From NCBI GenBank assembly GCA_963774265.1, contig CAVZDU010000003.1, positions 192,001-256,000 on the forward strand: DNA of 64,000 bases. The letters are read 5' to 3'. Under the pieces are notes generated by a model. That model made no database searches. It had not been told where the DNA came from and worked only from the letters and a program-made list of their open reading frames with translations. Position numbers and translations under genes: made by a program. This document shows, one piece after another, positions 17,321 to 53,434 of this stretch (position 1 is the first letter of the stretch; each line of letters begins with the position of its first letter). Source of the DNA: an uncultured Chloroflexia bacterium (lineage in GTDB: Bacteria > Chloroflexota > Anaerolineae > CG2-30-64-16).

Positions 17321-17377
17321 GCGCGGTTCGGTGCCGCCCGTACGTTCGAAAATAGCATATATCATTAATTTGGGGGC

Positions 17378-17406
17378 TTGTATTTTAGAAAAAAATAGTC
17401 TATAAT
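17378..17406 (+). promoter_or_regulatory. Sigma70-type promoter for the LysM gene
   Basis: TTGTAT-17 bp-TATAAT in an AT-rich intergenic region, with a GGAGG RBS downstream. Confidence 0.65.
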
Positions 17407-17461
17407 TGCACAGATCATATATTCGGCAGGCCTTTCTAGTTTATGGAGGGGGTGTATCACT

Positions 17462-18178
17462 ATGAAATCGCCGCGTTACGTCGTTGTCTTGAAGTTGACA
17501 GTCGTCCTGCTTCTGCTCGGCGCCATATTGGCGCCGGCCGCATCTGCCGCAGGGGCGGCGGGGACAGGATGTCCTCCTGTCTACTACCGGATCCAGCGAG
17601 GTGACATTCTCGCACGCATCGCTTCGCGCTACGGGGTGTCGATGTGGCAGTTGCAGGAGTGGAACGGGATCCGCAATATCGATCGGATCTATGCTGGCAA
17701 CGTGCTGACCATCTACCCGGCCAGATGCGCCAAGCCCGCGCCCAAACCCGCGCCCTGGCCCGCGCACAAGCCTGCGCCCGCGCCTGCACCGATGATTTCA
17801 CTCCCGTCTGCACCCGTGATCTGGCACCCCTCTGGGCCTGTGACCTGGCCCGGCGGGTGCTGCGCCACACCGCACGCCGAACCGCGCTCGATGATCACAT
17901 CACCCGGTCCGAACGCGCACGTCTGGGGCGCGGTGACGATCACAGGCAGCGCGACGCATGCCAATTTCGCGTATTACAAGCTGGAGGTTGGTGCGGGCTC
18001 CAACCCCAACACCTGGTCCTGGTTTGCGGGTGGTCAGTCGCAGGTCTCATACGGCACCCTGGGAGTGCTCAACACCGGGATCCTGCCGTGTGGTGGCACC
18101 TATACTATCCGCCTGGTCGTTGTCGACACGACCGGCAATTACCCGACGCCGAGCCAGGTGACGATCGTCGTCCGCTGA
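17462..18178 (+). CDS. Secreted LysM domain protein with Pro-rich linker and Ig-like C-terminus
   Basis: Signal peptide; YRIQRGDILARIASRYGVSMWQLQEWNGIRNIDRIYAGNVLTI LysM domain. Confidence 0.85.
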   Translation: MKSPRYVVVLKLTVVLLLLGAILAPAASAAGAAGTGCPPVYYRIQRGDILARIASRYGVSMWQLQEWNGIRNIDRIYAGNVLTIYPARCAKPAPKPAPWPAHKPAPAPAPMISLPSAPVIWHPSGPVTWPGGCCATPHAEPRSMITSPGPNAHVWGAVTITGSATHANFAYYKLEVGAGSNPNTWSWFAGGQSQVSYGTLGVLNTGILPCGGTYTIRLVVVDTTGNYPTPSQVTIVVR

Positions 18179-18238
18179 CGGGTACTCTATCACTATACGT
18201 ATACCACGAGTATAGTCGATAGCGTGGACTCATTACTA

Positions 18239-18290
18239 TCTACTCTCTCTCCTCTCACCCCCCTTTAGGGGTGAGAGGAGAGAGAGTAGA
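18239..18290. repeat. Perfect 23-bp inverted repeat between convergent genes
   Basis: TCTACTCTCTCTCCTCTCACCCC-CCTTTA-GGGGTGAGAGGAGAGAGAGTAGA. Confidence 0.9.
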
Positions 18291-18462
18291 GTAGAGACGC
18301 CCTGATAACACAACAACAGCGAATGCCGTTGGATGGCTTCCTCCCCGCGGAGCTGTTGACCCGGGCCGGGCTGCGATGGCGGCGACTTCGTCCTGCAGGG
18401 TGCGCTTCCGCTGCCCTTCTCGCCGCTGCCCGGCAAGCGGCAGTTTTTCCCCGGCTAGCCCG

Positions 18463-20601
18463 CTAGCCCGGTTGCCCCGGCTGGGCAGGCCCGATGCGAT
18501 ACGGCCGCATCATCTCGTTATCCTCGTGCTCGACGATGTGGCAGTGCCAGACAAACTGGCCGGGCTGCTTGAACTGCACGCGGACGCGGGTGACCTCGCC
18601 CGGATAGGCAATGACCGTATCCTTGTAGCCGTTCTCCCACGGCTCGGGCGCCCTTGGCGCTGACCCGGAAACCAGCTCCACCATCCTGTCCGCCTCGTTC
18701 ACAAAGATCGTCTGTCGGTCCACAACCTCAAAAAGCACCTCGTGGATGTGCATAGGATGGGCATCGGCGGTGGCGTTGTAAAGCTCCCACACCTCAATCG
18801 CGCCGACAGCAGGATTCTCGGTGATCGGATCCGCCCACATATGCATCATCCATGCACTAGGGTCGGCGGCCGGATTGCCCATGACCGTGCCTAGCATCGC
18901 CGCTGCTGGCGCATCCGCGAAGTACATCGACATCTCTTCGATCAGCGCCAGCCGTCGCACTACCCCGCCGGTCAGAGGCACGATTGGCGGAAGTTGCAGG
19001 AATTGCGGTGGCGTGGTCGGATCTGGGGCCACTGCCGCGACGACCCTGAACTGCAACACCTGCCCGGTGGTGTCCAGGTCGGACACCGGGAAGCCCACAC
19101 CTGGGACGCCCCCGCCGTAGGGCTCGTCCGGGCCGATATTGCCCAGGATATGGTTGCCTGGCAGCACATTGGTGAAATCCACGATGACGTCCGCGCGTTC
19201 GGCCGGGCTCATGAGCAGCTTGCCCCCATTGAGGGCGGTCATGTTGACGGGTGCGGCCAGAAAACCACCCTCGTTGCCGATCTGCCACACCTCCACGCCC
19301 GGGATGCTGCTGAAGTCCAGGATCAGGAAGCGCGCGTCGCAGCCATTGAGGAAGCGGAAGCGATACCGCCGCTGCTCGACGGTCTGAAACGGCCAGGTGT
19401 TGCCGTTGACCATGATCGTGTTGCCGAAGAATTCCGGGTTCCAGATTGGCGAGATATCGGTTTGTGGGATGTACGGCCCGTCGATACCGTCAAAGAAGGC
19501 GCGGCTGTCCGGGTAGAAGAGTGAACCGTCGGCGTTAAACGAACGGTCCTGCACCGCGATGGGGATCTCGTAGTACGTCTTGTTCGACGGGAATTTGTCC
19601 CCCTCCTTAGGTGCGGGACCGGGCAGCACGGCCGCGGCGCCGGTGCGGGTGTCGAGAACCGCACCATCGCCTGCAGGACCGCCGCGGATCAAAAAGAACC
19701 CGGCGGGACCGGCATAGACATTGACGCGCGTCATGCCCAAGGTGTGGTCGTGATACCAGACAGTCGAGGCGCGCTGGCTGTTCGGGTATTGGAACACTGC
19801 AGTGCCCGGTGCCCACGCCGACTCGCCAGGCGCCACATAACCCTTTGAAGTCGCCTTGCCCTTGAAGAAATCGTACCAGGTCCCCTCGGGGGCATAGCCC
19901 GCCGGGATATTGTTGGCGGCCGGCAGGTACCACGCCTCGGCGTATCCATCGCTCTCGTCGCCGACACCGGCTGCACCATGGACATGCGTCACCATCGGGA
20001 CGGGACCGGTGTAAGGGCCGGGCGTAGAGGCAAATTCCGGTCGTGTGTCACGATCTGCGACGCCTCCCGGCGGGTTGGCCCAGTGCAGGGTCGGATCCAC
20101 CGGCAGCAGGTGGTAAAGAAAGTTGCCGCTGGAGTCAACCAGTTCGTTGATCCATTTGACGCGCACCGGCGTATTCCACTTTGCTTCGATGGTGAGCGAC
20201 GGTGCATTGTGCACCAGCAGCCCCTTCTTGCTGGCCGCCCTGACCGCGCCGTACCCCCAAACGGTCGTCACCGGCATTCCCTGGGGAAGAATCTGCTGAT
20301 CAAATTGCCTGACCGAAATCTCATAGTAGTCGACGTTCTTGCCGCCCCTCTGCTTGATCGTGCCGGCCTTCGGCATGACCGGTGGGATCAGGAGCGGCGT
20401 CATGAATTTCGGGATGTCTAGGGGTACCAGCGAGCCGCCCGGGATCTGGGCCAGGGCGCGTTTGGAGGCGCGGCGGGCCCGCCGCCGCACTTGCCCCGCT
20501 GCCGGGCCGGCGAGTGCACGTTCGAGGTCAATCCTGCCGACCAGGAACAAGCCTGCGCCGGCGGCCAGGGAGTACTTGATAAAGTTTCGTCTGCTCGTCA
20601 T
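18463..20601 (-). CDS. Tat-exported multicopper oxidase (CotA/bilirubin oxidase-like)
   Basis: SRRNFIK Tat motif; Cu ligands THVHG, WYHDH, HPMHIH and HCHIVEHEDNEMM. Start placed at the ATG 20601 behind a GGAGG RBS. Confidence 0.92.
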   Translation of the reverse strand: MTSRRNFIKYSLAAGAGLFLVGRIDLERALAGPAAGQVRRRARRASKRALAQIPGGSLVPLDIPKFMTPLLIPPVMPKAGTIKQRGGKNVDYYEISVRQFDQQILPQGMPVTTVWGYGAVRAASKKGLLVHNAPSLTIEAKWNTPVRVKWINELVDSSGNFLYHLLPVDPTLHWANPPGGVADRDTRPEFASTPGPYTGPVPMVTHVHGAAGVGDESDGYAEAWYLPAANNIPAGYAPEGTWYDFFKGKATSKGYVAPGESAWAPGTAVFQYPNSQRASTVWYHDHTLGMTRVNVYAGPAGFFLIRGGPAGDGAVLDTRTGAAAVLPGPAPKEGDKFPSNKTYYEIPIAVQDRSFNADGSLFYPDSRAFFDGIDGPYIPQTDISPIWNPEFFGNTIMVNGNTWPFQTVEQRRYRFRFLNGCDARFLILDFSSIPGVEVWQIGNEGGFLAAPVNMTALNGGKLLMSPAERADVIVDFTNVLPGNHILGNIGPDEPYGGGVPGVGFPVSDLDTTGQVLQFRVVAAVAPDPTTPPQFLQLPPIVPLTGGVVRRLALIEEMSMYFADAPAAAMLGTVMGNPAADPSAWMMHMWADPITENPAVGAIEVWELYNATADAHPMHIHEVLFEVVDRQTIFVNEADRMVELVSGSAPRAPEPWENGYKDTVIAYPGEVTRVRVQFKQPGQFVWHCHIVEHEDNEMMRPYRIGPAQPGQPG

Positions 20602-20839
20602 GGTGGGTCCTCCATCTTCGGGTCGGCGAATCAATCTGACAATAGTACAACTTACATAGTACAAATATCTAACAAGTGACAACGTAATATTGACTACAAT
20701 AGATTCCCTTGAGAAAGTTGTGCAAGTAATGCACAATTGGACCGCGGCCGGGTCTTTGTAGTGCTGGTTCACACGCCCCATGCTATAATTCAATCTGTCC
20801 TGTAGACCCATTGAATTTGTGTTTCACACAGAGGCAGAT

Positions 20840-22453
20840 ATGAGCTCACTCTTCGCCGAGCAGATGCTCGTCCTCTTCGCGATCCTTGCCATCGGCTCGT
20901 GGCTCGGAGGTCTAACCTGGCGCGGCGTGTCCCTTGGCACAGCCGCTGTGTTTTTTGTCGGTTTGGCGTTCGGCCACTTCGGGCTGACCATTCCCAAGCC
21001 GGTGATGGACCTGGGCCTGCTGCTCTTCGTCTATGCGGTTGGCCTGCAGGCCGGCCCGCGCTTCTTCCGTACTTTCAAGAAGCAGGGCCGCGAGTTCGTG
21101 ATTGTGTCCCTGGCCGCGCTCCTGGCCGCGGGCATTGTAACCGTGCTGCTGGCGCGGCTGCTGGGCTATTCCTATGCGCTGGCCGCGGGCATGTTCACCG
21201 GCGCGGTGACGAACACCCCCGCGCTGGCCGGCGCGATCGACGCCGTCGGCCGACTGGATTCGGAGCAGGCCGCCACGGTCTCGGTCGGCTACGGCATCGC
21301 GTACCCGTTCAGTATTGTGGGCGTGACAATTCTGGTCTCGTTCCTGCCCAAGATACTGCGCCGGCCGGTGAAACAGGCCGAGGAAGACTGGCTGGCGAGC
21401 CAGGCAGGCGAGCAACCTCTGCTGGTCAAGAAGCAGTTCAAGATCACGAACGACAACCTGGAGGGCAAGCGGCTGGGTAATTTAGACACCCACCGGGTCA
21501 GCCAGGTGAACGTCTCGCGCATCCAGCAGAAGGGGAAGGTGGTGACAGGCACGCCGGACGTCGTGCTCCATGTGGGCGACATCTTACTGGCGGTGGGTAC
21601 GGAGACAGAGCTGGAGAAGCTGCGGCTGCTCATCGGCGATGAGGTGCAAGTCCAGATGGAGCCCAGCACGCAGACCGTCACCCGCGAGATGCACGTCACC
21701 GAGTCGAAGCTGGCCGGCAAGCGCCTGATGGACCTGCGCGTGTGGGATAACTACGCGGTTGTTATCACGCGCATCCGCCGCGCGGGCGTCGAGCTTGCGC
21801 CGGTGGGCACCAGCACGCTGGAGTTCGGCGATACTCTGCGGGTCGTCGGTGACGCGACGGTGGTTGATGAGTTCGCCCGCCTGGTCAGCGGGGACGCGCG
21901 CAAGATCGATGAGACCAACATGGTGCCGTTCCTTATCGGCATCCTGCTCGGCATCCTCGTAGGGCAGATTGCGATTCCGCTGGTGAATGGGATGTCGATC
22001 AAACTGGGCACCGTGGGCGGCGCGCTCATCGTGAGCCTGCTGCTGGGCCACTTTGGCCGGGTCGGTCCGTTCCGCATGTACGTCCCTGTCGCGGCCAGGA
22101 ACATTTCGCGCGAGCTAGGGCTGATGCTCTTCTTGGGCGGTGCGGGCGCAAATGCCGGCACGCAATTGGCCAAGGTGGTTCAGGCGCAGGGCGCCGGTGT
22201 CTTCCTGGCAGGAGCCGCGATCACCCTCACCGCCACGTGCGTCACCATCATTGTGACGCACCTGATCTTCAGGATGAACCTGCTTTCGGTGATCGGCCTG
22301 ACCGCTGGTGTGATGACGAATCCCCCGGCCCTGGCCGCCGCCGAAAACCAGACGACGACCGGTGTGCCCGCGGTGACCTACGCCAGCGCATTTCCGGTCG
22401 TGTTGATTTTCAAGATCGTGCTCGCGCAGATCCTCGTGCAGCTGCTGCGGTGA
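20840..22453 (+). CDS. AspT/YidE/YbjL family antiporter (copy 2)
   Basis: Collinear paralog of 15701..17320 with long identical peptide blocks. Confidence 0.9.
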   Translation: MSSLFAEQMLVLFAILAIGSWLGGLTWRGVSLGTAAVFFVGLAFGHFGLTIPKPVMDLGLLLFVYAVGLQAGPRFFRTFKKQGREFVIVSLAALLAAGIVTVLLARLLGYSYALAAGMFTGAVTNTPALAGAIDAVGRLDSEQAATVSVGYGIAYPFSIVGVTILVSFLPKILRRPVKQAEEDWLASQAGEQPLLVKKQFKITNDNLEGKRLGNLDTHRVSQVNVSRIQQKGKVVTGTPDVVLHVGDILLAVGTETELEKLRLLIGDEVQVQMEPSTQTVTREMHVTESKLAGKRLMDLRVWDNYAVVITRIRRAGVELAPVGTSTLEFGDTLRVVGDATVVDEFARLVSGDARKIDETNMVPFLIGILLGILVGQIAIPLVNGMSIKLGTVGGALIVSLLLGHFGRVGPFRMYVPVAARNISRELGLMLFLGGAGANAGTQLAKVVQAQGAGVFLAGAAITLTATCVTIIVTHLIFRMNLLSVIGLTAGVMTNPPALAAAENQTTTGVPAVTYASAFPVVLIFKIVLAQILVQLLR

Positions 22454-36151: not shown

Positions 36152-36198
36152 CGGTCCAGCGAGGTATGACATGCGTCATTTTACGTTATGGCGCGATA

Positions 36199-36237
36199 TG
36201 TTATACTGCACAATTGCCTACGTGGCATATTTCACGA
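36199..36237 (+). promoter_or_regulatory. Extended -10 and candidate Rex operator upstream of nuoE
   Basis: TGTTATACT at 36199-36207; ACGTGGCATATTTCACGA at 36220-36237 resembles TTGTGAA-N4-TTCACAA. Confidence 0.4.
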
Positions 36238-36253
36238 TCGGACGATCCTGCTC

Positions 36254-36727
36254 ATGATTGAAGACCTCACGACTCTCGATTTCGCTCCCCTGGACAAGGT
36301 CCTTGAGGAGTACGCCGGCCAGAAGGGCGCAGTCATCCCTATCCTGCAGCATGTTCAGGATGCCTACGGATTCCTGCCCAAGGAGGTCCTGGGCGAGATC
36401 TCGAAGCGGACGGGCATCCCGGTGAGCCGGCTGATCGGGGTGGCGACTTTCTACGCCCAATTCCGGCTGAACCGCTGCGGTAAGCACCTGATTCGCATCT
36501 GTGATGGCACCGCCTGTCATGTCCGCGGCGCGTCCAAGTGCATCGAGACAGTGGAGAAACAACTTGGTGTGCCCGCCGGCGGCACATCTGATGATTACGA
36601 GTACACGATGGAAATCGTCTACTGCCTGGGTTCCTGCGGCCTGGCGCCAGTGGCGGTGATTGACGACAAGGTGTACGGCCGTTTGACGCCGAACGTCCTC
36701 GTACAGCAACTCGAGACGCTTGGATAG
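36254..36727 (+). CDS. NuoE/HydC-like [2Fe-2S] subunit
   Basis: VATFYAQF, CDGTACHVRG, CLGSCGLAP. Confidence 0.92.
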   Translation: MIEDLTTLDFAPLDKVLEEYAGQKGAVIPILQHVQDAYGFLPKEVLGEISKRTGIPVSRLIGVATFYAQFRLNRCGKHLIRICDGTACHVRGASKCIETVEKQLGVPAGGTSDDYEYTMEIVYCLGSCGLAPVAVIDDKVYGRLTPNVLVQQLETLG

Positions 36728-36889
36728 TAGGGGAGTTGCGCGCCCGTAGGGGTGTTGCATGCCCGTAGAGACGTTGCATGCCCGTAGGGGCGTTGCATGC
36801 CCGTAGAGACGTTGACATGCCCGTAGAGACGTTGACATGCCCGTAGAGACGTTGCATGCCCGTAGAGACGTTGCATGCAACGTCTCTAC
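36727..36889. repeat. Seven tandem 19-20 bp REP half-sites ending in a complete 28-bp palindrome
   Basis: Units GTAGRGRYGTTG(A)CATGCCC x7 (the first is degenerate), then GTAGAGACGTTGCATGCAACGTCTCTAC at 36862-36889, identical to 569-596. Confidence 0.92.
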
Positions 36890-36902
36890 AGAGTCATAGA
36901 TT

Positions 36903-37478
36903 ATGCTGGAGCTGGCTCTGCACATACTGGATATCCTGCAAAATACGGTCGAGGCCGGCGCAACTCGCGTCAGACTCAGCATCGTGGAGGATCAGCCCGC
37001 AGACCGCCTGACTATCACCGTGACCGACAATGGACGCGGAATGGACGAACAAACCGCGCGGCGGGTGCTGAACCCCTTCTACACCACCCGCACAACTCGT
37101 CACGTGGGCCTTGGATTGCCGCTGTTTGCCGCCGCAGCGGAGGGAGCCGGCGGAGGACTGAGCATCCGCTCGCAGCCAGGACAGGGGACTACGGTCGAAA
37201 CCACGTTTCAACTGAGTCACCCAGACCGGCAGCCGCTCGGTGATATGGCGGGGACGCTGCTGGCATTTCTTCTGACCGGGCAGGCGCCGGATCTCGTGTA
37301 TGCGCATCACGTGCTCACCAACCAGGTTTCTGCCAGCAACCTGGTTAGTGAGAACGAATTTTCATTTGACATCGCCGACATTCGTGCCGAACTTGACGGC
37401 GTGCCACTGAATCAACCCCGGGTGGCGCAGTGGCTGGCGGAGTTCTTGGCCGAAGGCGAAGCAGAACTCATTCATTGA
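36903..37478 (+). CDS. HATPase_c (histidine kinase-like ATPase) protein
   Basis: ELALHILDILQN, DNGRGM, PFYTTRTTRHVGLGL, HPDRQPLG. Confidence 0.88.
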   Translation: MLELALHILDILQNTVEAGATRVRLSIVEDQPADRLTITVTDNGRGMDEQTARRVLNPFYTTRTTRHVGLGLPLFAAAAEGAGGGLSIRSQPGQGTTVETTFQLSHPDRQPLGDMAGTLLAFLLTGQAPDLVYAHHVLTNQVSASNLVSENEFSFDIADIRAELDGVPLNQPRVAQWLAEFLAEGEAELIH

Positions 37479-37488
37479 GGTAAACCAT

Positions 37489-37863
37489 ATGCCCAAGCTC
37501 AAGTCCCTGGATGACCTGAGGCGCATCCGTGAGGACGCGCAACAAACCCTGAAGACACGACTGGACACCGGTACGACCATCATCGTGGGCATGGGCACCT
37601 GCGGCATCGCGGCCGGTGCGCGCGACACGATGCACGCCATCCTGGATGAGCTGGCCCAGCGCAATATTGACGCCCACGTGACCACCGTCGGCTGCATCGG
37701 CCAGTGCGTCAAGGAGCCATTGGTCGATATCGAACAGGCAGGCCAGCCGCGCATCACGTATGCCAACGTCCGGCCTGATATGGTGTCACGCCTGATCGAA
37801 GAGCATCTGATAAATGGCCAGCCGGTCGAAGAGTGGATCGTCGGCCGTATGGATAAGAATTGA
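37489..37863 (+). CDS. Thioredoxin-like [2Fe-2S] ferredoxin (HydD-like)
   Basis: VGMGTCGIAAGA, VGCIGQCVKEP. Confidence 0.88.
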   Translation: MPKLKSLDDLRRIREDAQQTLKTRLDTGTTIIVGMGTCGIAAGARDTMHAILDELAQRNIDAHVTTVGCIGQCVKEPLVDIEQAGQPRITYANVRPDMVSRLIEEHLINGQPVEEWIVGRMDKN

Positions 37864-37877
37864 CAGGGGAGCAGCCA

Positions 37878-38345
37878 ATGGAACAATTCAACAGCATCGA
37901 GGCCGTGATCAATCGGGCGATCGAGCTCGAGGTCGAGGCCGTGACCATGTACAGCAATGCAGCACAGACGATCAAGGATGACGCCGTGCGCCAGCGTCTG
38001 CTGGAGATGGCCGCGCAGGAGCGGGGACACAAGACCAAGCTGGAGGATATCCTCGCGGGCAACGTGCGCTGGGCCATCCGGCGCTCCAAGGCCGAGCCGG
38101 TGACAGACCTGCGCCTGAGCGATCACCTGGTCGGCGGGTCGCTGGATCCCAAGGCCGACTACCAGGACGTGCTCCTCTTTGCCGCGCAGCGCGAGAAGGC
38201 CGCACACGAATTCTACAAGGCAATGGGTGAGATGATCGACGACAAGCTCGTCCAGAACCTCTTCGAGATGCTGGCCACCGAAGAACTGCGCCATAAGTAC
38301 GTGCTTGAAAAGACGTACGAAGAGGTTGTTTACAAGGACATCTAA
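37878..38345 (+). CDS. Ferritin-like (rubrerythrin family) di-iron protein
   Basis: E..A...Y / ERGH and E..A..FY / ELRH paired motifs; no rubredoxin Cys. Confidence 0.8.
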   Translation: MEQFNSIEAVINRAIELEVEAVTMYSNAAQTIKDDAVRQRLLEMAAQERGHKTKLEDILAGNVRWAIRRSKAEPVTDLRLSDHLVGGSLDPKADYQDVLLFAAQREKAAHEFYKAMGEMIDDKLVQNLFEMLATEELRHKYVLEKTYEEVVYKDI

Positions 38346-38347
38346 GC

Positions 38348-41300
38348 ATGGATAGCAACCTGTTTACGAACTCAGCTACCGAGGGCCCGCGCATCGATCC
38401 ACTGCTCCGCGCCGAAGTGCTGATCTGCGGCGGCACGGGCTGCCACTCCTCCAACTCGCATGAGGTCACGATGGCGATGGAGGCCGAGGTGGCCCGGCGT
38501 GGGCTGGCCGGGGAAGTACGCGTCGTGCCCACCGGCTGCCGCGGCTTCTGCTCCATGGGTCCGGTCATGATGATCTACCCCGAGGGCATCCTCTACTGCC
38601 AGGTGCAGCCCAGCGACGTGCCCGAGATCGTCGAGGAGACGCTGCTCAAGGGCCGCCAGGTCAAGCGCCTCACCTATGAGGAACCGATCCAGCACAAGGC
38701 GCTGCCGTTTTACCACGACATTCCGTTCTACGGCAAACAGATCCGCATCGCGCTCCGCAACTGCGGCCTGATCAACCCGGAGAGCATCGACGAGTACATC
38801 GCACACGATGGCTATGCTGCGCTGGGCAAGGTCTTGACCAGCATGTCGCCGGATGATGTGCTGCGCGAGATGAAGGATTCGGGGCTGCGCGGCCGCGGCG
38901 GCGCGGGCTTCCTGACCGGCCTGAAGTGGGAGTTCGCGCGGCGCAGCGCAGAACTTCCCCAAGTATGTCGATCTGCAACGCCGACGAGGGCGACCCGGGC
39001 GCGTTCATGGATCGCTCGATCCTGGAAGGTGACCCGCACAGCCTGATGGAAGGCATGACCATCGCCGGCTACGCGATCGGCGCCGCGCGAGGGGTACATC
39101 TACTGCCGCGCCGAATACCCGCTGGCAATCGCACCGCCTGAAGACGGCCATCGCGCAGGCGCACGAGTATGGCCTGCTTGGGCGAGAACATCCTGGGCAG
39201 TCGACTTCTCCTTCGATCTGAAGGTCAAAGAGGGCGCAGGCGCCTTCGTCTGCGGCGAAGAAACTGCGCTGATGGCCTCCATCGAGGGCAAGCGCGGCGA
39301 GCCGCGGCCCCGCCCGCCGTTCCCTGCCGTCGCCGGCCTCTGGAACAAGCCCTCCAACGTCAACAACGTCAAGAGCTACGCCATGACGCCCCAGATCATC
39401 CTGAAGGGCGCGGCATGGTTCAAGGCCATCGGCCCGGAGAAGTCGCCCGGCACCGCGATCTTCGCCCTGACCGGCAAGATCAACAACACCGGCCTGATCG
39501 AAGTGCCGATGGGCATCCCCCTGGGCGAGATCATCTTCGACGTGGGCGGCGGCATCCCCAAGGGCAAGCCGTTCAAGGCCGTGCAGACGGGCGGCCCGCT
39601 GGGCGGCTGTCTGCCGGCTTCGGCGCTGAACACGCCGGTCGACTTCGACTCACTGACCGCTGCGGGCGCGACCATGGGCTCGGGCGGCATGATCGTCGTC
39701 GACGACGACACCTGCATGGTGGAGTTCGCCAAGTACTTCCTGCAGTTCGCCACCGCCGAGTCGTGCGGCAAGTGCGTGCCCTGCCGGGTCGGCGGCATGC
39801 GGCTGCTGGAGGTCCTCGACGCGGATCACCGAGGGCAAGGGCACGCGCGCGGACGTGGACACGATCAAGTACATCTCGGCCAACATGCAGGCGGCCTCGC
39901 TGTGCTCGCTGGGCCAGCTGACCCCCGGCCCGGTGATGTCGGCCATCCGCTTCTTCGAGCAGGAGTTCCTCGACCACATCGACGACAAGAACTGCCCGGC
40001 CGGCCAATGCAAGCCGCTGGTGCGCGCCAAGTGCATCAACGCCTGCCCGGCCGGCGTCGAGAGCCCGGCCTACCTGGCGCTGGTGGCCCAGGGCCGCTAC
40101 GCCGAGGGGCTGGAAATCCATCGCCAGCGCAACCCGTTCGCCCTCGATCTGCGGCCGCGTCTGCCCGGCGTTCTGCGAGCAGAAGTGCCGCCGCGGCGAG
40201 ATCGACGAGCCGATCAGCATCCGCCTGGTCAAGCGCTTCATGGCCGATCACGAGGTCGCAGGCCCCGTGGACCCCCGAGCACATCGAAGCCTGCCAAGCG
40301 GTCAGAAGGTCGCCGTTGTGGGCGCCGGCCCGGCCGGCCTGACCGCGGCGCTGCGCCTGGCGCAACGGGGCTACCGGGTGACGTGGTCTTCGAGAAGCTG
40401 CCTATCCCGGGCGGCATGATGACGGTCGGCATCCCGGAGTACCGCCTGCCCACGCGAGCCGCTCTTCGCCGAGATCGAGAACATCCAGCGTGCCGGCGTG
40501 GAGATCCGCTGCAACCAGGCGCTGGGCAGCGACTTCACGCTCGACGACCTGTTCGAACGAGACGGCTACAACGCCGTGGTGCTGGCCATCGGCGCGCACA
40601 GCAGCCGCAAGCTGGGCATCCCTGGCGAGGAGAAGGCCGGCGTCGTCCACGGCACCGACTTCCTGCGCGAGGTCGGCCTGATCAACCGGTGGCGGCGGCG
40701 ACGGCCAGCACTCATGCCGGCAGTCGCCGGCAAGCGTGTGGCCGTGGTCGGCGGCGGCGACGTGGCCCTCGACGCGGCACGCACCGCCTGGCGGCTGGGC
40801 GCCAACGAGGTCCACGTCATCTACCGGCGCCAGCGCGCAGGACATGCCCGCCTATGCCGAGGAAGTGCACGCGGCGATACGACGAAGGCATCCAGTTCCA
40901 CTTCCTGGCCAACCCGGTGCAGGTGCTGGGCGACGGTCACGTGACCGGCGTCGTGGTGCAGCGGCAGCGGCTGGGCGATTTCGACAACGGCGGCCGGCGG
41001 CGGCCCGTGCCTGCGGAGGGCGACGACTTCACGCTGGATGTCGACGTGTTGATCCCGGCCATCGGCCAGACCACCGACACCGTCGTGGATGCAGCAGGCC
41101 GGCATCAAAGTCAGCCGATCCAGCACGTTCGACGTCGGTGACGCGTACAACACGTCGCGGGCGCGGCGTCTTCGCCGCTGGCGACGCCGTGAGCGGGCCG
41201 GCGACGGTGATCGAGGCGGTGGCCCAGGGCAACCTGGTGGCCGTCGCGGTCGATCACTGGCTCAAGACGGCCCAGTATGACGAAGCCGCGCTACGAAACC

Positions 41301-41540
41301 GAGCGGCCCGACATCGCCCAGTACTTCAGCCTGGATGACTATGCCAATGCCCACCGGCCGCATGTGCCCGAATTGGCGCTGACCGAGCGGCACGGCACCT
41401 TCCGGGAAGTGGAATTGGGCTTCGACGAACACACGGCGCGCGAGGAAGCCAAGCGCTGCCTGCGCTGTGACCTGGAGTGGCTGGACTTCATGAAGTTGCC
41501 GAAGCCCGAGGCAATAGAAGCCGTAGAAAGGAGCCTGTGA
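38348..41540 (+). CDS. NuoF/HydB-like FMN subunit fused to a GltD-like FAD/NAD(P)H module (frameshifted)
   Basis: N-terminal 2Fe-2S (ICGGTGC...GCRGFC), [44 protein letters not shown], then [46 protein letters not shown]. The NuoF-to-GltD junction is in one frame (ORF 39855..41141). Confidence 0.85.
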
Positions 41541-41544
41541 CCCA

Positions 41545-44439
41545 ATGGCGGTTGTAAACATTACCATCAATGGGATCAAACTCCAGGCACAAATGGGCCA
41601 GACCGTCTACCAGGCGGCCGCGGCCGCCGGGATCGACATCCCGGTGCTGTGCCACCATCCGGCGCTGCCGCCGGAGGGCGCGTGCCGCGTCTGCCTGGTG
41701 GAGATCGAGAAGCAGCGCAACCTCCAGCCGGCCTGCACCTTCCCCGTCACCGAGGGCATGGTCGTCCACACCCATTCGCCCAAGGTGCTGCGAGGCGCGC
41801 AAGTTCGTGCTGGAGCTGATCATCTCCGACCATCCGCTGGACTGCATGACGTGCGAAGCGACGGGCGACTGCCGGCTTGCAGGACCTGGCCTACGAGTAC
41901 GAGGTCAAGGGGGACGAGTACGCCGGCGGCGTGCAGCACGACTATCCCATCGACGACCCGAACCCGTTCATCCAGGTGGATCGCAACAAGTGCATCCTCT
42001 GCCGGCGGTGCGTGCGGGCGTGCAACTACATCAACGGCGTCGAGGCGATCAGCGATCGTCTACCGCGGGTTCAACGCGCAAGATCGCGTTCGGCATGGAC
42101 TCCACGATGGAGGACAGCCCGTGCGAGTTCTGCGGGAGCTGCGTCGAGGTGTGCCCGATCGGCCGCGCTCTGGCCCAAGATGAGCATGGGCAAGGGCCGC
42201 GCCTGGCAGCTCAAGACAGGTGGAGACGATCTGCTCCTATTGCGGCGTCGGCTGCCAGCTGAATCTGCACGTGCGCGGACAACGAGATCGTCAAGGTGAC
42301 GGGCGCCGACGGCCCGTCCAATCACGGCTTCTACCTGCGTCAAGGGCCGCTTCGGTTACGATTACGTCAATCACTCGGATCGGCTGAGCAAGCCGCTGGT
42401 GCGGCGGTATCTGCTGGACGGCGGGACGAAGCCCACACGTCCACAGACGCAGGACGATGGTCACGATCGTCAGTCGCCCCCAATCCAGCGATCGGAATTC
42501 GTCGAGACCGACTGGGACACAGGCGCTCGACCTCGTCGCCCGCAAATTCGCCGAGACCAAGCAGACGCACGGCGGCGATGCGTTCGCGGCGCTCTGGCTT
42601 CGGCCCGCTGCACCAACGAGGAGAACTTCCTCATCATGAAGCTGACCCGACAGGTGATGCAGACGCACAATATCGACCATTGTGCGCGGCTCTGACACAG
42701 CGCTACCGTCACCGGTCTGGTGACAACGCTTCGGCTCTGGGGCCATGACCAACCCGTTCGAGGATATCGCCAAGAACGCGCAAGTGCCTCTTCATCATCG
42801 GCTCGAACACCACCGAGCAGCATCCGGTGTTCGGCATGCAACTGCGCCAGGCGGTCAAGCAGCGCGGGCGTGCCGCTCATCGTGGCCGATCCGCGGCGCA
42901 TCCCGATCACGCAATACGCGACGATCCATCTGCGCCACAAGCCCGGCACCGATACGGCACTGCTCAACGGCCTGATGCATGTGTTGATCACCGAGGACCT
43001 GTACGATCACGACTTCGTGGCGAACCGCACCGAGGGCTTCGAGGATCTCAAGGCCAAGATGGCCGAGTACACGCCCGAGCGCGTGGCCTGGATCTGCGGC
43101 GTGAAGGCGGACGACATCCGCAAGGCGGCGCGGCTGATGGCTGCGCATCGGCCCGGCGCGCTGATGTATGCGATGGGCATCACCCAGCACACCAGCGGCC
43201 ACGGCAACGTGATGAGCTGCGCCAACCTGCAGATGCTGCTGGGCAACATGGGCGTGTCGGGCGGCGGCGTCAATCCGCTGCGCGGCCAATCCAACGTGCA
43301 GGGCGCATGCGACATGGGCGGCCTGCCCAACTACTACACCGGCTACCAGAACGTGGCGCTCGAAGCCAGCCGCAAGAAATTCGAGGCGGCCTGGGGCGTC
43401 GCTGCCGCCGGTGGATAAGCCGGGCCTGACCGTGGTCGAGATGATGAACGCGGCCGAGCACGGGCCAGATCAAGGCGATGTACGTCGTCGGCGAGAATCC
43501 GATGCTCTCCGACCCCGACCTGCAACCACGTGCGCCACTGCTTGCAGTCGCTGGATTTCCTGGTGGTGCAGGATCATCTTCATGACCGAAACCGCGCAAC
43601 TGGCCGATGTGGTGCTGCCGGGCTCGTCGTTCGCGGAGAAGGACGGCACCTTCACCAACAGCGAGCGGCGCGTGCAGCTGGTGCGCCGCGCTCTGAATCC
43701 GCTGGGCGAAACTCGGCCCGATTGGGAGATCATCGCCGAACTGGGCCAGCGTACAGCGGCGCTCGAGGCCGGCGCCCTGAGAGCGCCGCAGCGACGGTCG
43801 CCGCGGCGCCGCACGGCTCGTGGGATTACATGAACCCGGCCGAGATCATGGACGAGATCGCCGACGCTGACGCCGAGCTACGGCGGCATCCGCCATGCAC
43901 CGGCTGGAGAAGCTGGCAGGCCTGCAATGGCCGTGCCCCGACGAGAAGCATCCCGGCACGCCGATCCTGCACGTCGGCAAGTTCACGCGCGGGCTGGGCA
44001 AGCTTCCAGCCGATGGACTTCCTGCCGCCGGTCGAACTGCCGGACGAAGACATATCCGCTGCTGCTGACCACCGGCCGCGTGCTGTATCATTATCACACC
44101 GGCACGCTGACCCGGCGCTCCCAGGGGCTGGCGGCCATCTATCCGGAAGGGCTTGATCGAGATGCACCCGGAGGACGCGGCACGGTTGGATGTGGTCGAA
44201 CGGCGAGATGGTGCAGGTCGCCAGCCGCCGCGGCCAGGTGAACGTCAAAGACCGATGTCACCGAGAAGATCCAGCCGGGCGTGGTCTTCATGACCTTCCA
44301 CTTCGCCGAGAGCGCGGCCAACTTCCTCACCAACCCGGCGCTCGACCCGGTGGCGAAGATCCCGGAGTTCAAGGCGTGCGCGGTGAAGGTGAGCAAGCTT
44401 CCCGCCGTGAGTGCGAGACGTGCTGAGGCAGACGAGTAG
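41545..44439 (+). CDS. fdhF: Selenocysteine-containing formate dehydrogenase alpha subunit with NuoG-like Fe-S N-terminus (frameshifted)
   Basis: [89 protein letters not shown]. Confidence 0.9.
42693..42730 (+). promoter_or_regulatory. Sec UGA codon and bacterial SECIS hairpin
   Basis: TGA at 42693-42695; AGCG...GTCACC-GGTCT-GGTGAC...CGCT stem-loop with a G-led apical loop starting 19 nt after the UGA. Confidence 0.8.
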
Positions 44440-48160: not shown

Positions 48161-48691
48161 TTGACAACCATTTCCGTATCAACAGTTTCCCAGCGCATCA
48201 CAATGCGCATCAACGGTGAGCGGCGCGAGTTCGAGGTCGGACGCGATCTCCTGCCCACGACCACCCTCTCGGCGTTCTTGCGGGAGCGGCTCGGCTACAC
48301 CGGCCTGAAGATCAGTTGTGACGAAGGCGCCTGCGGCGCGTGCACGATCATCATGGACGGCAAGGCGGTCCTGTCGTGCATGCTGCTGGCCGTGGAAGCG
48401 GACGGCCATGACCTGCTGACCATCGAAGGCCTGCCGGACGACGATCCGGTGATCGAGGCCTTCGCCGAGCAGTGCGAGCCGGGCCACGGCACCGCGCTGC
48501 AGTGCGGCTACTGCACCCCCGGCTTTGTCATGACGGCCCGCGCCCTGCTCAACGAGAATCCCTCGCCGACCCTGGACGAGGTGAAGGAAGCGCTCTCCGG
48601 CAATCTCTGCCGCTGCGGCTGCTACGCGGGCATCGCCATGGCGGTCAGGCATGCTGCCGAGAAGATCGCAGCGAGAGGAGGACGGGCATGA
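48161..48691 (+). CDS. Xanthine dehydrogenase family 2x[2Fe-2S] small subunit
   Basis: CDEGACGACT, QCGYCTPG, NLCRC. Confidence 0.92.
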   Translation: MTTISVSTVSQRITMRINGERREFEVGRDLLPTTTLSAFLRERLGYTGLKISCDEGACGACTIIMDGKAVLSCMLLAVEADGHDLLTIEGLPDDDPVIEAFAEQCEPGHGTALQCGYCTPGFVMTARALLNENPSPTLDEVKEALSGNLCRCGCYAGIAMAVRHAAEKIAARGGRA

Positions 48692-51046
48692 GCGCACCCT
48701 ACAAACCCCGTGTCCCGCGCCAGTTCGTCGGCGGCTATCGCCCGCGCATCGACGCGGTCGAAAAGGCGCACGGCCGCGCCCCCTACGCCGACGACATGAT
48801 CTCCGAGCGCAACTACCCCGGTCTGCTCCATGCGCGGGTGCTGCGCAGCCCTTATCCCCGCGCCAGGATCAAGCACCTCGACACCACCAAGGCCGCGGCG
48901 CTGCCGGGCGTCAAGGCCATCCTGACCTACCAGGACCCGGAGGTCGCGCGCCTCAAGCCGACCAACGCCGGCTGGACCGACGCGGTCGACACGGTCAGCT
49001 ACGACAAGATGATGTGGCGCAAATTCCGCGACCGCCGCGTGCTGGGCGACTACGCCGACCTGGGCCGGCGACGAGGTGGGCGTCGCGATCGCCGCGGAGA
49101 GCGAGCAGATCGCGGAGCAGGCGCTGCGGCTGGTCGAGGTCGAGTGGGAGCAGCTGCCCTTCGTGCTCGATCCGCTCGCGGCGATGCAGCCCGGCGCGCC
49201 GGTCATCCACCCGCAGATCGCCGAGCACAACGTGCTCCCGCCCGATCCGGTCGGCGGTCCGGATGTCTTCCTGAACAAGGGCGATGTGGAGCAGGGCTTC
49301 GCCGCCGCGGATGTCGTCCTCGAGATGGACACCAGCCACCACAACCCGACGCAAGGCTCCCTCGATCCCTGGTGCTGCGTGGCCGAGTGGCAAGACGGAC
49401 CGGCTGACCGTTGTCTCCAATTCCTACGCGGCCGACCAGACCCGCATGCACGTCAGCCAGATGCTGGAGCTGCCGATCCACAAGGTGCGGGTCATCAGCA
49501 AGTACGTGGGCGGGCAGTTCGGCCGGGGCGACACCGGCGATCAGCCGTTCTTCCTCTTCACCGCGCTGCTGGCGAAGAAGGCCGGGCGGCCCGTCAAGTT
49601 CAAGCACACGCGGCGGGACAGCTTCCACGACACCCGGCAGGCGCGCGCTCTACCACTGCAAGGTGGGCGCCACGGCCGACGGCACGATCACCGCGCTCCA
49701 TTTCAAGTCCATCGGCGACATCGGCGCGCACGCCGACCACTCGGTCTTCGCGCTGAAATTCGCCCCGGCCGAGATCTCGGAGGCCGCGCTGGCCCCGATT
49801 CCCAACATCAAGATGGAATCCTATGCCGTCTACACCAACCACATCCCCGGCTGCATGATGCGCGGGGTGGGCAATTCCCAGTTCAACTTCATCTTCGGCC
49901 GGATGATCGATGGCCTGGCCGAGCGGCTGGATATGGACCCGATCGAGCTGGCGATCAAGAACTTCGGGCACGAATGGGGCACCTGCCCGGATCAGAGCCT
50001 GACGGCGGTGCTGGAGACGGGCGCGCAGCGCATCGGCTGGGCCGAGAAGCGGCACAAGCCCGGCGCAGGCCCGCTCTACGAGGGCGTCAAGAGGCGCGGG
50101 GTGGGCTTCTCCCTGCATCCCGGCTGGCATGCCGAGTGGCAGGAAGAGCGCCGCGGGCAGGTGCAGGCGAAGATCACCCTCTACCCGGACGGCACGGTCA
50201 CGCTGGACGCGCCCACCGTGGAGACCGGCACCGGCTCGAACACCTGCAATGTGCTTGGCTGCGCCGAGGCGCTCGGCTTCCTGGGCGTCCGCCCGGAGGA
50301 CATCACCTGGGTCTCGACCGTGGACACCGATAGCGGCATGCGCGACTGCGTGCAGACCGACAGCGCCGTCTCCTTCCTGCAGTCCGAGGTGCTGGCGGTG
50401 GCGGCGCGAGGAGCTGAAGGAGAAGCTGCTCGCTCTCGCGGCCCCTGTCCTCGGGGTCCCGGCCGACCAGTTGACCATCGACCGGACGGCCAGATCATCG
50501 GGCCGGGGCGCAGCATCAGCGTGAAGGAGCTGCTGTGGCAGGGCGACCTGGTGCCGCTGTCGGTGATGGTGAGCCGGCGGCCCTCGAGCGAAGAAGACCG
50601 GCGTGCCGTACATCGCCAGTTTCGCCGAGGTGGAGGTGGACACCGGCACCGGCCGCACGCAGGTGCTCAAGCTGGTCATCATCAACGACTGTGGGACGGT
50701 CATGTACGCCTCCGGCGCGGAGGCCCAGCAGATCGGCGGCCAGGTCATGGCCATCGGCGAGGCGCTGACCGAGGAGATGATCTACGACCCGGTGCGCGGC
50801 GTGCCGCTGAACTTCAACTTCATCGACTACAAGATGCCGACCATCCTCGACATGCCGGCGATCGAGCCGGTGCTCCTGGAGGTGTGGCGGGGCGCGGGCG
50901 AGTATGGCGCGTGCGGCATCGGCGAAGGCACGCTGACCTGCACCCCACGGGCCATCGCCAACGCGGTCTACAACGCCATCGGCGCCCGGGTCGATGAAAT
51001 CCCCCTGACGCCGGAAAAAGTGCTCCGGGCCTTGGGCAAGATTTGA
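48688..51046 (+). CDS. Xanthine dehydrogenase family molybdopterin-binding large subunit (frameshifted)
   Basis: VLRSPYPRARI, VGGQFG, MRGVG, ETGTG, DYKMPT, GIGEG, AIANAVYNAIG. Confidence 0.88.
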
Positions 51047-51055
51047 GGTGACGCC

Positions 51056-53434
51056 ATGACACTCCAGCCTTTCAAGTACGTCCCGGCTGACTCGCTGCAG
51101 GCGGCAGAGGCGCTGCTGCAGGAACACGGCGAAGGGGCCGCGGTGATCGCGGGCGGCACCGATCTGCTCGGCGCGCTCAAGGATGCCATCCACGACGACC
51201 CCTCCGGAGCTCCTGATCGGCCTCAAGCCGCTGACGGATCTGCGCTACGTGAACGCCGATGCCCGACGGGGTGCGCATCGGCAGCCTCACCACGCTCGCC
51301 GAGATCGCGCAAACACCCGGTCATCCGGCAGACCTATCCGCTCCTCGCCGAGGCCGCGCGCAGCGTGGCCTCGCCGCAGATTCGCAACGTCGCGACCATC
51401 GCCGGCAACCTCTGCCAGGAGCCCCGCTGCTGGTACTACCGCAACCCCGACAACACCTTCGACTGCCTGCGCAAGGGCGGCAAGACGGTGCGACGCGTTG
51501 TTCGCCGAGAATCGCTACCACTCCATCTTCGGCGGCATGTGCGTCAGCGCCGCGCCGTGCGTCACCGGCTGCCCCATCCACAACGACATCCCCGCGTACA
51601 TGGCCAAGCTCCGCGCCGGCGAGCTCGACGAAGCGGTGGCGATCCTGCTGCGCACCAACCCGCTGCCGGCGATCACGGGCCGGGTCTGTCCGCACACCTG
51701 CGAGACGGACTGCAACCGGTTCGACTACGACGAGCCGGTGTCGATCCGCGACGTCGAGCGCTTCCTGGGCGACTATGCGCTGGAACACGCCGAGGACCTC
51801 TACCGGCCGCCCGCGGCGGAATCGGGCAAGCGGGTGGCGATCGTCGGCGCGGGCCCGGCCGGGCTGACCGCGGCCTACTTCCTGCGGCAGGCCGGGCATG
51901 ACGTGACGGTCTTCGACCAGATGCCCGAGGCCGGCGGCATGCTGACCTACAGCATCCCGGCCTACCGCCTGCCCAAGGACGTCATGGCGGCCCAGGTCCA
52001 CGCGCTCGAAGGCATGGGCATCCGCTTCGAGCTGGGCGCGGCCGCTCGGCAGCGACGGCGCTGTCGCTGGACGACCTCAGGGAGCGCTATCGAGAGCGTG
52101 TTCCTGGCGACCGGTCTCTGGAACGGGAAGACGCTCAGGCTGGAGAAGGGCGAGTTGCTCGACTCCGGCCTGAAATTCCTGATCGACGTCCAGGTCGGCG
52201 GCAGCGCGCAGCCGAGCGTGGGCGAGCGAGTGCTGGTGATCGGCGGCGGCAGCGTGGCGGTGGATGTGGCGCTCACCGCGCGGCGCCTCGGCGCGACCGA
52301 GGTGACGATGGCCTGCCTGGAGAGCCTGGAGACGATGCCGGCCATCCCCGAGGATGTCGAGCAGGCGCTGGAGGAAGGGATCACCATCCTGCCCTCGTGG
52401 GGACCCCAGCGCGTCGTGGAGCAGGACGGGAAGCTGACCGGCATGGAGCTGGTGCGCTGCACCTCGGTCTTCGACAAAGACGGGCGTTTCGCGCCGACCT
52501 TCGATCCCGCGGTCAAGACCATGGTCGAGGCGGACCAGATCCTGGTCGCCATCGGCCAGGCCGCCGATCTCTCGTATGCCGAGCCCGGGCTGCAAGACGG
52601 AGCGCGGGCTGCTCGTGGCCGACAAGGTGACCGGCGCGACGGCCATGCCGGGCGTCTTTGCGGGCGGCGACGTCACCGGCAGCTCCGCGACGATGGTGCA
52701 GGCGATGGCTTCGGGGCAAAGGGCCGCGGCATCCATCGACGCGTACTTCGCCCGCGTGCAGCCCGAACCTGCCCGCCCGAGCCACGTCCCGCTGGTCATC
52801 AACGAGGCTGCGCTGCCGGCCAGCCAGCGGGTCCATGCCCCGCGCCTGCCGGTGGATCAGCGCACCCTCCTCGCCGAAGACTGCGGCGACCCTGTCGCTC
52901 GACCTGCTGGAACGCGAGCCGACCCGCTGCGCCAACTGCGGCTGCGTGGCGGTCAGCGCCTCGGACCTCGCGCCGGCCCTCGTCGCGCTCCGCGCGACGG
53001 TGAAGACCACCCAGCGGCGCCTGCCGGCCGAGGATCTCTTCACCGCGGCCGAGAGCAAGACGACGGTCCTGGCGCCGGACGAGCTGATCGAGGAGATCGA
53101 GATCCCCGCGCCGCCGCCGGGGAGCCACCAGGCCTATCACAAGTTCCGCATCCGCAACGCGATCGACTTCCCCATCGTCGGCGTCGCCTTCTGCGCGGAC
53201 ATGCAGGAGGGCAGATTCCACGATGCGCGGGTCGTGCTCGGGGCGGTCGCGCCCGTCCCGTTGGCCGCGCGTGCGGTCGAGGCGCTGCTGGAGGGTCAGG
53301 CGCCGAGCGAGGCGTTGGCGCAGGAGGCCGCCAGCCTGGCGGTCAGGGACGCGCAGCCGCTCGCGCGGAACCGGCTCAAGGTGGAGGTGGTGAAGGCGCT
53401 GGTCAGGAAGGCGATCCTGGGCGCCGCGGGCTGA
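51056..53434 (+). CDS. XDH-family FAD subunit ([4Fe-4S] PaoB/HcrB type) with an internal GltD-like module (frameshifted)
   Basis: AGGTDL, ASPQIRNVATIAGNLCQEPRCWYYR; insert CVTGCP..TGRVCPHTCE, GAGPAG, GGGSVAVD, GVFAGGD; then CVAVSASDLAPAL and KFRIRNAIDF. Confidence 0.85.

What the first reader, a model, noticed from the sequence alone, without database searches (positions are those of the whole stretch)
51056..53434. Whole GltD-like flavoenzyme inserted inside the FAD subunit of a xanthine-oxidase-family enzyme
Seen: the PaoB/HcrB-type [4Fe-4S] loop (CQEPRCWYYR...C...C...HSIFGG) is interrupted before CVAVSASD by about 470 codons encoding Fe-S, FAD and NAD(P)H-binding motifs. Both junctions read through in single ORFs. 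The second Rossmann fold ends in ACLES rather than YRR, hinting at NAD(H). Inference: a two-flavin molybdoenzyme that could bifurcate or confurcate electrons. It is the second GltD-module fusion to a molybdo/tungsto-enzyme system within about 12 kb. I know of no characterised example.
Basis: partly seen in the sequence, partly recalled or inferred. Interest (0 to 1): 0.75.

Follow-up and report, generated by a model that had tools for sequence, protein, structure and literature searches.

The report
Two-flavin molybdoenzyme with built-in NADH adaptor
This gene encodes a real and widespread form of a molybdenum enzyme subunit that carries a second flavin enzyme spliced into it, most likely as a straight wire that lets it trade electrons with NADH, and a gut enzyme of apparently the same design has already been described.

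Summary
The insertion is real. A 467-codon GltD-like module interrupts the [4Fe-4S] loop of a PaoB/HcrB-type FAD subunit. The gene here carries nine one-base frameshifts that look like sequencing errors; intact ~789-aa homologs are common (106 of 120 listed hits in one search, 113 of 120 in another), named from Chloroflexota, Clostridia and Synergistaceae. Both flavin sites and the ligands of three [4Fe-4S] clusters are conserved. In a confident model the split host refolds as a whole PaoB/HcrB subunit. The insert is a circularly permuted GltD cassette with the same boundaries as in StnC/NfnA, where it is a non-bifurcating end of a linear wire. Best reading: an unbranched chain NAD(H)–FAD–3x[4Fe-4S]–FAD–2x[2Fe-2S]–Mo that gives an otherwise NAD-independent enzyme type a nicotinamide port. 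Bifurcation is unlikely: no second exit path or partner was found. 'No characterised example' is probably wrong. Enterocloster UxdC (urolithin 10-dehydroxylase; same gene order, two predicted FADs, activity shown by heterologous expression) matches the description, although I could not compare its sequence. Substrate and direction of this enzyme are unknown.

The parts
48161..48691 (+). Two-[2Fe-2S] small subunit (XdhC/PaoA/HcrC type)
   Evidence: Pfam Fer2 + Fer2_2; NCBIfam gamma-subunit models, all under cut-off
48688..51046 (+). Molybdopterin catalytic subunit, frameshifted in this sequence; ATGA overlap with the Fe-S gene
   Evidence: Pfam Ald_Xan_dh_C, MoCoBD_1/2 in pieces; 737/782 identical to intact P0269 with 6 insertional shifts; best PDB match of P0269 is HcrA 1rm6_A, E 3e-63; under every NCBIfam cut-off
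51056..51536 (+). Host FAD subunit, N-terminal part (residues 1-159): AGGTD and GNL FAD motifs; host-cluster Cys124, Cys136, Cys144
   Evidence: Pfam FAD_binding_5; residues mapped; 52% identical to the uninserted sister P0234
51537..52942 (+). Inserted circularly permuted GltD/NfnB-like cassette (residues 160-626): proximal cluster C171/C210/C214/E233, distal cluster C167/C218/C622/C625, FAD Rossmann fold, second Rossmann fold ending in ACLES
   Evidence: Fer4_20 + Pyr_redox_2; aligns to NfnA 9bov_A 97-567 (Z 47.0, rmsd 2.4, 456 aligned) and StnC 8oh5_C 98-567 (Z 45.4, rmsd 2.5, 457 aligned); proximal ligands by alignment to NfnA C108/C147/C151/K170; distal ligands inferred from the GltD/NfnB pattern (recalled)
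52943..53434 (+). Host FAD subunit, C-terminal part (residues 627-789): fourth host-cluster Cys627 and CO_deh_flav_C domain
   Evidence: Pfam; C627 invariant in 110/110 of A1 and 110/110 of the set; 50% identical to P0234 161-322
36188..44250 (+). Separate upstream NuoE/NuoF-like + FdhA + formate-transporter cluster whose NuoF-like gene ends in another permuted GltD module (YRR type); context only, not shown to be part of this enzyme; end coordinate approximate
   Evidence: Pfam, NCBIfam, tblastn 37% to the insert at 40026-40818, YRR and C-terminal RCxxC read in ORFs 40498-40944 and 41277-41540

Best explanation
The three genes encode one xanthine-oxidase-family enzyme (Fe-S, Mo and FAD subunits) whose FAD subunit has taken up a permuted GltD cassette as a built-in NAD(H) terminal. 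Electrons run in one unbranched chain: NAD(H) - cassette FAD - proximal [4Fe-4S] - distal [4Fe-4S] - host [4Fe-4S] - host FAD - two [2Fe-2S] - Mo. The cassette FAD converts hydride into single electrons. It replaces the ferredoxin or other carrier that HcrB/PaoB-type subunits need because they do not use NAD directly. Shown: anatomy, conservation of ligands, refolding of the host in a model, cassette identity. Inferred: the order of cofactors, NAD over NADP, and the absence of a branch. Direction and substrate are open. A reductive dehydroxylation of an aromatic compound (as for Hcr, Ucd and Uxd) is my first guess; oxidative hydroxylation with NAD+ as acceptor uses the same wire.
For: C625 (distal cluster) and C627 (host cluster) are invariant and two residues apart, which implies the two clusters are adjacent (inference). 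The model's host halves superpose on whole 5y6q_B (317/330 aligned, rmsd 1.8, Z 38.6), PaoB 5g5g_B (306/316, rmsd 2.1, Z 36.5) and HcrB 1rm6_B (307/323, rmsd 2.1, Z 36.4). The insert matches StnC/NfnA at the same boundaries; there the FAD is the non-bifurcating end of a linear path (PMC10482914; PMC11829005). PaoABC does not use NAD+ (PMC3958847) and Hcr uses reduced ferredoxin (PMC12771579). UxdC is proposed to shuttle electrons from distal to proximal FAD through 4Fe-4S clusters, and uxdFOC confers dehydroxylation (PMC12658268). NADH alone drives the related Ucdh. Non-YRR motifs go with NAD(H) in DsrL. The best PDB match of the Mo subunit is HcrA.
Against: No coordinates were available, so no cofactor distance was measured. 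The cassette keeps two NfnB-like features: Glu as fourth ligand of the proximal cluster (109/110 in A1; Lys in StnC and Csac NfnA) and Arg303 (109/110). The Mo subunit scores higher on XdhA models (399.9 bits) than on HcrA (340.8), all under cut-off, so direction is not settled. It is only 27% identical to the Mo partner of another fused subunit, so substrate does not carry over from Uxd. CLE-to-NAD is an analogy; the residue sets quoted for DsrL-1 start with S/T, not C.
Confidence: 0.8

Rival explanations
1. Bifurcating or confurcating molybdoenzyme: the cassette FAD splits NAD(P)H electrons, sending a low-potential one down the clusters to Mo and a high-potential one to another acceptor; or the host FAD merges two inputs.
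For: Two flavins. The NfnB Arg and the Glu cluster ligand are kept. Aromatic dehydroxylation by Hcr uses reduced ferredoxin.
Against: No NfnS-type [2Fe-2S]/FAD partner among the 76 window ORFs scanned with Pfam (43, 33) or next to the gene in L001. No BfuBC core in this operon. The Arg is also present in non-bifurcating StnC (R239). The closest solved cassettes are non-bifurcating. Ucdh works with NADH alone.
Confidence: 0.08
2. Two-port enzyme: the linear wire exists, but ferredoxin can still dock at the host or distal cluster, or NAD(P) can still reach the host FAD, giving side activities (ferredoxin:NAD oxidoreductase or transhydrogenase) without true bifurcation.
For: The host loop is the ferredoxin-side entry in Hcr (recalled; one search gives ferredoxin as donor). 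The host FAD motifs are intact.
Against: The cassette is attached at exactly this loop and should cover it (inference). PaoB-type subunits do not use NAD+.
Confidence: 0.1
3. Artefact or decayed gene: a misassembly, or a pseudogene with a dead flavin site.
For: Nine frameshifts in this copy.
Against: Intact homologs with the same order in three searches (counted in 25 and 53) and an intact copy in genome locus L001. All shifts are insertions, there are no stops, and all 40 checked positions match the intact homolog. Neighbouring genes are broken the same way. An artefact for the family is excluded; only this one copy could still be a pseudogene.
Confidence: 0.02

Closest known systems
Uxd (UxdFOC), urolithin 10-hydroxy dehydroxylase of Enterocloster (PMC12658268)
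   Same: Gene order Fe-S, Mo, FAD. The FAD subunit is described as longer, with an added 4Fe-4S domain and FAD/NAD(P) domain, two FADs at opposite ends in an AF3 model, and a proposed linear shuttle. The operon confers activity in C. sporogenes.
   Different: Sequence not compared (supplement unreadable). In the sections read the paper does not describe an insertion, a permutation or the nucleotide used. The window's enzyme sits in a clade with Chloroflexota-labelled members and has an unknown substrate.
4-hydroxybenzoyl-CoA reductase HcrCAB (1rm6), PaoABC (5g5g), Methylobacillus aldehyde oxidase (5y6q)
   Same: Three-subunit plan; FAD subunit fold with the extra [4Fe-4S] loop; Mo subunit closest to HcrA among solved chains.
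   Different: No inserted cassette. Hcr uses ferredoxin and PaoABC does not use NAD+. HcrA and HcrB equivalog cut-offs are not reached.
StnC (8oh5) and NfnA of NfnABC (9bov, 9n5u)
   Same: The same permuted GltD cassette, from xPC to RCxxCGC, embedded in a larger host.
   Different: The host is NuoG-like and feeds a BfuBC bifurcating core. YRR (NADPH) instead of CLE; Lys instead of Glu at the proximal cluster in StnC and Csac NfnA.
NfnB/NfnL of NfnAB (4ylf, 5jca) and GltD (2vdc, 6s6s)
   Same: FAD and nucleotide Rossmann folds, two-cluster domain, conserved Arg and Glu ligand.
   Different: Alignments stop near residue 564: the CxxC segment is at the C-terminal end here. No NfnA/NfnS partner was found. 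YRR is absent.

Membership tests
Xanthine-oxidase-family FAD subunit, PaoB/HcrB [4Fe-4S] type | FAD_binding_5 + CO_deh_flav_C forming one complete fold | tested here: met
   Pfam; 306-317 residues superpose on 5y6q_B, 5g5g_B and 1rm6_B at rmsd 1.8-2.1
Xanthine-oxidase-family FAD subunit, PaoB/HcrB [4Fe-4S] type | Four-Cys loop for an extra [4Fe-4S] cluster | tested here: met
   C124, C136 and C627 110/110 and C144 109/110 in A1; all four 110/110 in the set; they align to the four loop Cys of PaoB through P0234; that these are the PaoB ligands is recalled
Xanthine-oxidase-family FAD subunit, PaoB/HcrB [4Fe-4S] type | Adjacent Mo and 2x[2Fe-2S] subunit genes | tested here: met
   Both directly upstream in the window; Mo gene directly upstream in L001, where the contig ends before an Fe-S gene could be seen
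4-hydroxybenzoyl-CoA reductase (HcrA/HcrB equivalogs) | Score above curated cut-off | tested here: not met
   P0001 154 vs 404.55 (the insertion splits the match); P0269 340.8 vs 994.55
Uxd-type two-FAD enzyme | Order Fe-S, Mo, FAD; FAD subunit with added 4Fe-4S and FAD/NAD(P) domains | tested here: met
   Window against the text of PMC12658268 sections 7 and 8
Uxd-type two-FAD enzyme | Sequence homology and the same insertion site as UxdC | not testable with these tools
Uxd-type two-FAD enzyme | Reductive dehydroxylation of an aromatic substrate | not testable with these tools
   Needs an assay; Mo partners within the family are as low as 27% identical
StnC/NfnA-type permuted GltD cassette | xPC...GRVCP...Rossmann folds...RCxxCGC with the CxxC at the C-terminal end | tested here: met
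StnC/NfnA-type permuted GltD cassette | YRR motif for NADP(H) | tested here: not met
   ACLES in the window; xLE in 98 of 110, YRR in 11 of 110, other in 1 of 110 of A1
NfnAB/NfnSL bifurcating enzyme | Arg at the FAD and Glu-ligated proximal cluster | tested here: met
   R303 and E233, each 109/110 and 110/110; sequence only, and the Arg is not diagnostic
NfnAB/NfnSL bifurcating enzyme | Small subunit with [2Fe-2S] and FAD as the high-potential branch | tested here: inconclusive
   None among 76 window ORFs scanned or beside the gene in L001; the rest of the genome was not seen
NfnAB/NfnSL bifurcating enzyme | Crossed flavin potentials and coupled ferredoxin reduction | not testable with these tools
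   Needs biochemistry
Bfu (BfuABC) bifurcating family | BfuBC core in the same operon | tested here: not met
   The three-gene operon has none; the NuoE/NuoF-like genes lie about 7-12 kb upstream with FdhA, separated by unrelated genes; definition from PMC9304861

The most novel reading that the evidence does not exclude
The cassette FAD, which keeps the NfnB-type Arg and Glu-ligated proximal cluster, bifurcates NADH. The low-potential electron runs through three [4Fe-4S] clusters and the host FAD to molybdenum to drive a hard aromatic dehydroxylation without ferredoxin, and the high-potential one leaves to an acceptor encoded elsewhere. That would make this widespread family, to my knowledge, the first xanthine-oxidase-type enzymes with a bifurcating flavin in their own FAD subunit.
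Probability: 0.07. Interest if true: 0.85.

Novelty: new member of a known kind. Interest (0 to 1): 0.4.

Why it matters
It extends a design so far reported, in the papers I could search, only for a gut urolithin enzyme to a broad family in anaerobes, with very different catalytic subunits and so probably many unknown substrates. It shows how the design is built: one portable, circularly permuted GltD cassette plugged in next to a cysteine ligand of a host Fe-S cluster, as in StnC/NfnA. Both CLE and YRR versions exist in the family, which offers a natural pair for testing NAD versus NADP coupling. It does not, on present evidence, add a new bifurcating enzyme.

Tried and rejected
Misassembly or pseudogene: rejected for the family. 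C161 as fourth host ligand: rejected, since it is Cys in only 77 of 110 and 5 of 110. Cofactor distances: the model's coordinates are not on the script machine, so none were measured. Plasmids: 151 records match, none over 80% of the query. Independent insertion in the HcrB-like P0152: its insert falls away from the other fused inserts in two trees, but an AU test on 41 rows chosen from the 114 did not reject one clade (p 0.081), so this is not shown. UxdC sequence: not obtained. Literature: 8 completed searches gave Uxd as the only such architecture and no report of bifurcation in one; I judged most listed papers by title and abstract start only, and most subscription journals are outside the library. 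The metagenome and viral contig collections stayed unchecked. No complex prediction was run.

Full report
Observation. The region 48161-53434 holds three same-strand genes of a xanthine-oxidase-family enzyme: a [2Fe-2S] subunit, a molybdopterin subunit and an FAD subunit. In the FAD gene the loop CQEPRCWYYR...C...C...HSIFGG is followed by Fer4_20 and Pyr_redox_2 domains, and only then by CVAVSASD and the CO_deh_flav_C domain. The inserted stretch is residues 160-626 of the nearest intact homolog P0001 (789 aa), or 467 codons, at window 51537-52942. Each junction lies within one ORF in the correct frame.

Alignment to P0001 needs nine one-base insertions, no stops, and gives 716 of 789 identities. 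The Mo gene needs six insertions and no stops, with 737 of 782 identities to P0269. All 40 cofactor-related positions checked are unchanged. Genes from about 38 to 53 kb are fragmented alike, while citrate synthase and penicillin amidase further on are whole. Sequencing error is the simplest reading (inference).

Is it real elsewhere? Yes. Searching with the C-terminal host part among longer proteins gave 274 hits; 106 of the 120 listed have host-N, insert and host-C in order, and 14 lack the N part. Among 50%-identity representatives, 31 of 150 listed have that order, down to 36% identity. A search with the Anaerovoracaceae copy gave 113 of 120. The few names given include Chloroflexi, Anaerolineaceae, Clostridia, Angelakisella massiliensis, Lachnospiraceae and Synergistaceae, plus one Paceibacterota label. 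In L001 the intact gene follows a Mo-subunit gene directly. As an indirect sign of linkage, 23 of 120 fused proteins share an exact contig length with a listed Mo-subunit homolog, 14 of 37 among contigs of 20 kb or more. An uninserted sister, P0234 (325 aa, 52% and 50% identical to the two host halves), reads HSIFG-x4-CVAV and pins the insertion point.

Anatomy. In alignment A1 (110 sequences) C124, C136, C167, C171, C210, C214, C218, C622, C625 and C627 are invariant; C144, E233 and R303 are kept in 109. A second set of 110 agrees, with C167 at 108. C161 is not conserved, so C627 is the fourth host ligand. Both FAD sites keep their motifs. An AlphaFold2 model of P0001 has mean pLDDT 91.7 and pTM 0.88. 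Its two host halves superpose together on entire solved subunits: 5y6q_B 317 of 330 residues, PaoB 306 of 316, HcrB 307 of 323, rmsd 1.8-2.1. The insert superposes on NfnA 97-567 (Z 47.0, rmsd 2.4, 456 aligned) and StnC 98-567 (Z 45.4, rmsd 2.5, 457 aligned), better than on NfnB or GltD (Z 33.7-38.2, ending near residue 564-570). The insert is therefore not plain GltD. It is the circularly permuted form, with the RCxxC segment moved to the end, so that its two ends meet at the distal cluster (inference).

Mechanism. C625 of the distal cluster and C627 of the host cluster are two residues apart, so the clusters should be neighbours (inference; no distances were measured). That gives one chain: NAD(H), cassette FAD, proximal, distal and host [4Fe-4S], host FAD, two [2Fe-2S], Mo. 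In StnC the same cassette is the non-bifurcating start of a linear path (PMC10482914, passages), and in Csac NfnA the FAD is at the end of the chain, which the authors call incompatible with bifurcation (PMC11829005, passages). Subunits with this loop do not use NAD directly: PaoABC does not use NAD+ (PMC3958847, passages) and Hcr takes reduced ferredoxin (PMC12771579, passages). The cassette thus most likely supplies a nicotinamide port. ACLES replaces YRR; in DsrL, YRR marks NADP(H) and other triplets NAD(H) (PMC7596348, passages). In A1, 98 of 110 are xLE and 11 are YRR; the YRR members group together in the insert trees, along with two unfused YRR proteins.

Against my reading. The cassette keeps Glu at the proximal cluster, as NfnB does, where StnC and Csac NfnA have Lys, and it keeps the FAD Arg. 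The Arg is not diagnostic. A partner for a second branch was not found among 76 window ORFs scanned or beside the gene in L001, but the rest of the genome was not seen. No BfuBC core, the defining feature of Bfu enzymes (PMC9304861, passages and part of section 5), lies in this operon. Direction is unsettled: the Mo subunit is closest to HcrA among solved chains (E 3e-63) but scores higher on XdhA models, and under every cut-off. It is 27% identical to the Mo partner in L001.

What is known. PMC12658268 (sections 7, 8 and 10 read whole, other passages; supplement unreadable) and its preprint 10.1101/2025.08.06.668933 (passages) describe uxdFOC of Enterocloster. The gene order is the same. UxdC is longer than UcdC and carries an added 4Fe-4S domain and FAD/NAD(P) domain, and two FADs are modelled at opposite ends. 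The authors propose that 4Fe-4S clusters shuttle electrons from the distal to the proximal FAD, and the operon confers urolithin 10-dehydroxylation in C. sporogenes. This fits the present family closely, but I could not compare sequences; the unseen supplement holds the accessions and bears directly on membership. My eight searches found no other example and no claim of bifurcation in such an enzyme, within a library that lacks most subscription journals.

Verdict. What this finding adds is the insertion site, the permuted cassette shared with StnC/NfnA, the breadth of the family, its CLE and YRR versions, and a Chloroflexota-labelled clade with an unknown substrate. Novelty: new member of a known kind, conditional on UxdC being homologous (my estimate about 0.85). 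Interest 0.4.

Noticed in passing
window 38348-41540: A NuoF/HydB-like gene ends in a permuted GltD module (YRR type, C-terminal RCxxC), seemingly in place of the usual C-terminal ferredoxin domain (recalled). It is followed by FdhA and a formate transporter, and preceded by NuoE-like, kinase, thioredoxin-like ferredoxin and rubrerythrin-like genes. Possibly an NAD/NADP-coupled formate dehydrogenase.
   Followed up: partly
protein P0152: An HcrB-like host (TIGR03195 212 bits, under cut-off) with the cassette at a different junction and a shorter loop; perhaps a second, independent insertion. The trees suggest it but the AU test does not reject one origin (p 0.081).
   Followed up: partly
protein P0128: A 1730-aa chain joining the Mo subunit to the cassette-bearing FAD subunit; no [2Fe-2S] domain detected. 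A real fusion or a read-through artefact.
   Followed up: no
L022 5822-16127: An unfused arrangement: a GltD-like protein, a plain XdhB and an HcrA-like Fe-S/Mo fusion (799 bits, under cut-off) lie next to a bzdO benzoyl-CoA reductase gene in a Latescibacterota genome.
   Followed up: partly
window Mo subunit, 48688-51046: Where HcrA has TTQVP this clade has SNSYA (Tyr aligned to Gln; the seven listed variants of the motif all keep SNSY). That this Gln lies near the Mo is recalled; the change may point to an unusual substrate or chemistry.
   Followed up: no
proteins P0253, P0205, P0163: Unfused or differently fused cassettes nested among the fused inserts, one joined to a pyruvate:ferredoxin oxidoreductase gamma-type domain, which suggests the cassette moves between hosts.
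   Followed up: no
window 36550-36880: Near-identical repeated units between the NuoE-like and kinase genes, seen as repeated peptides in overlapping reading frames; not analysed.
   Followed up: no
window 15701-22453: Two paralogous Asp-Al_Ex/TrkA_C transporter genes flank a LysM protein and a Tat-exported multicopper oxidase.
   Followed up: no
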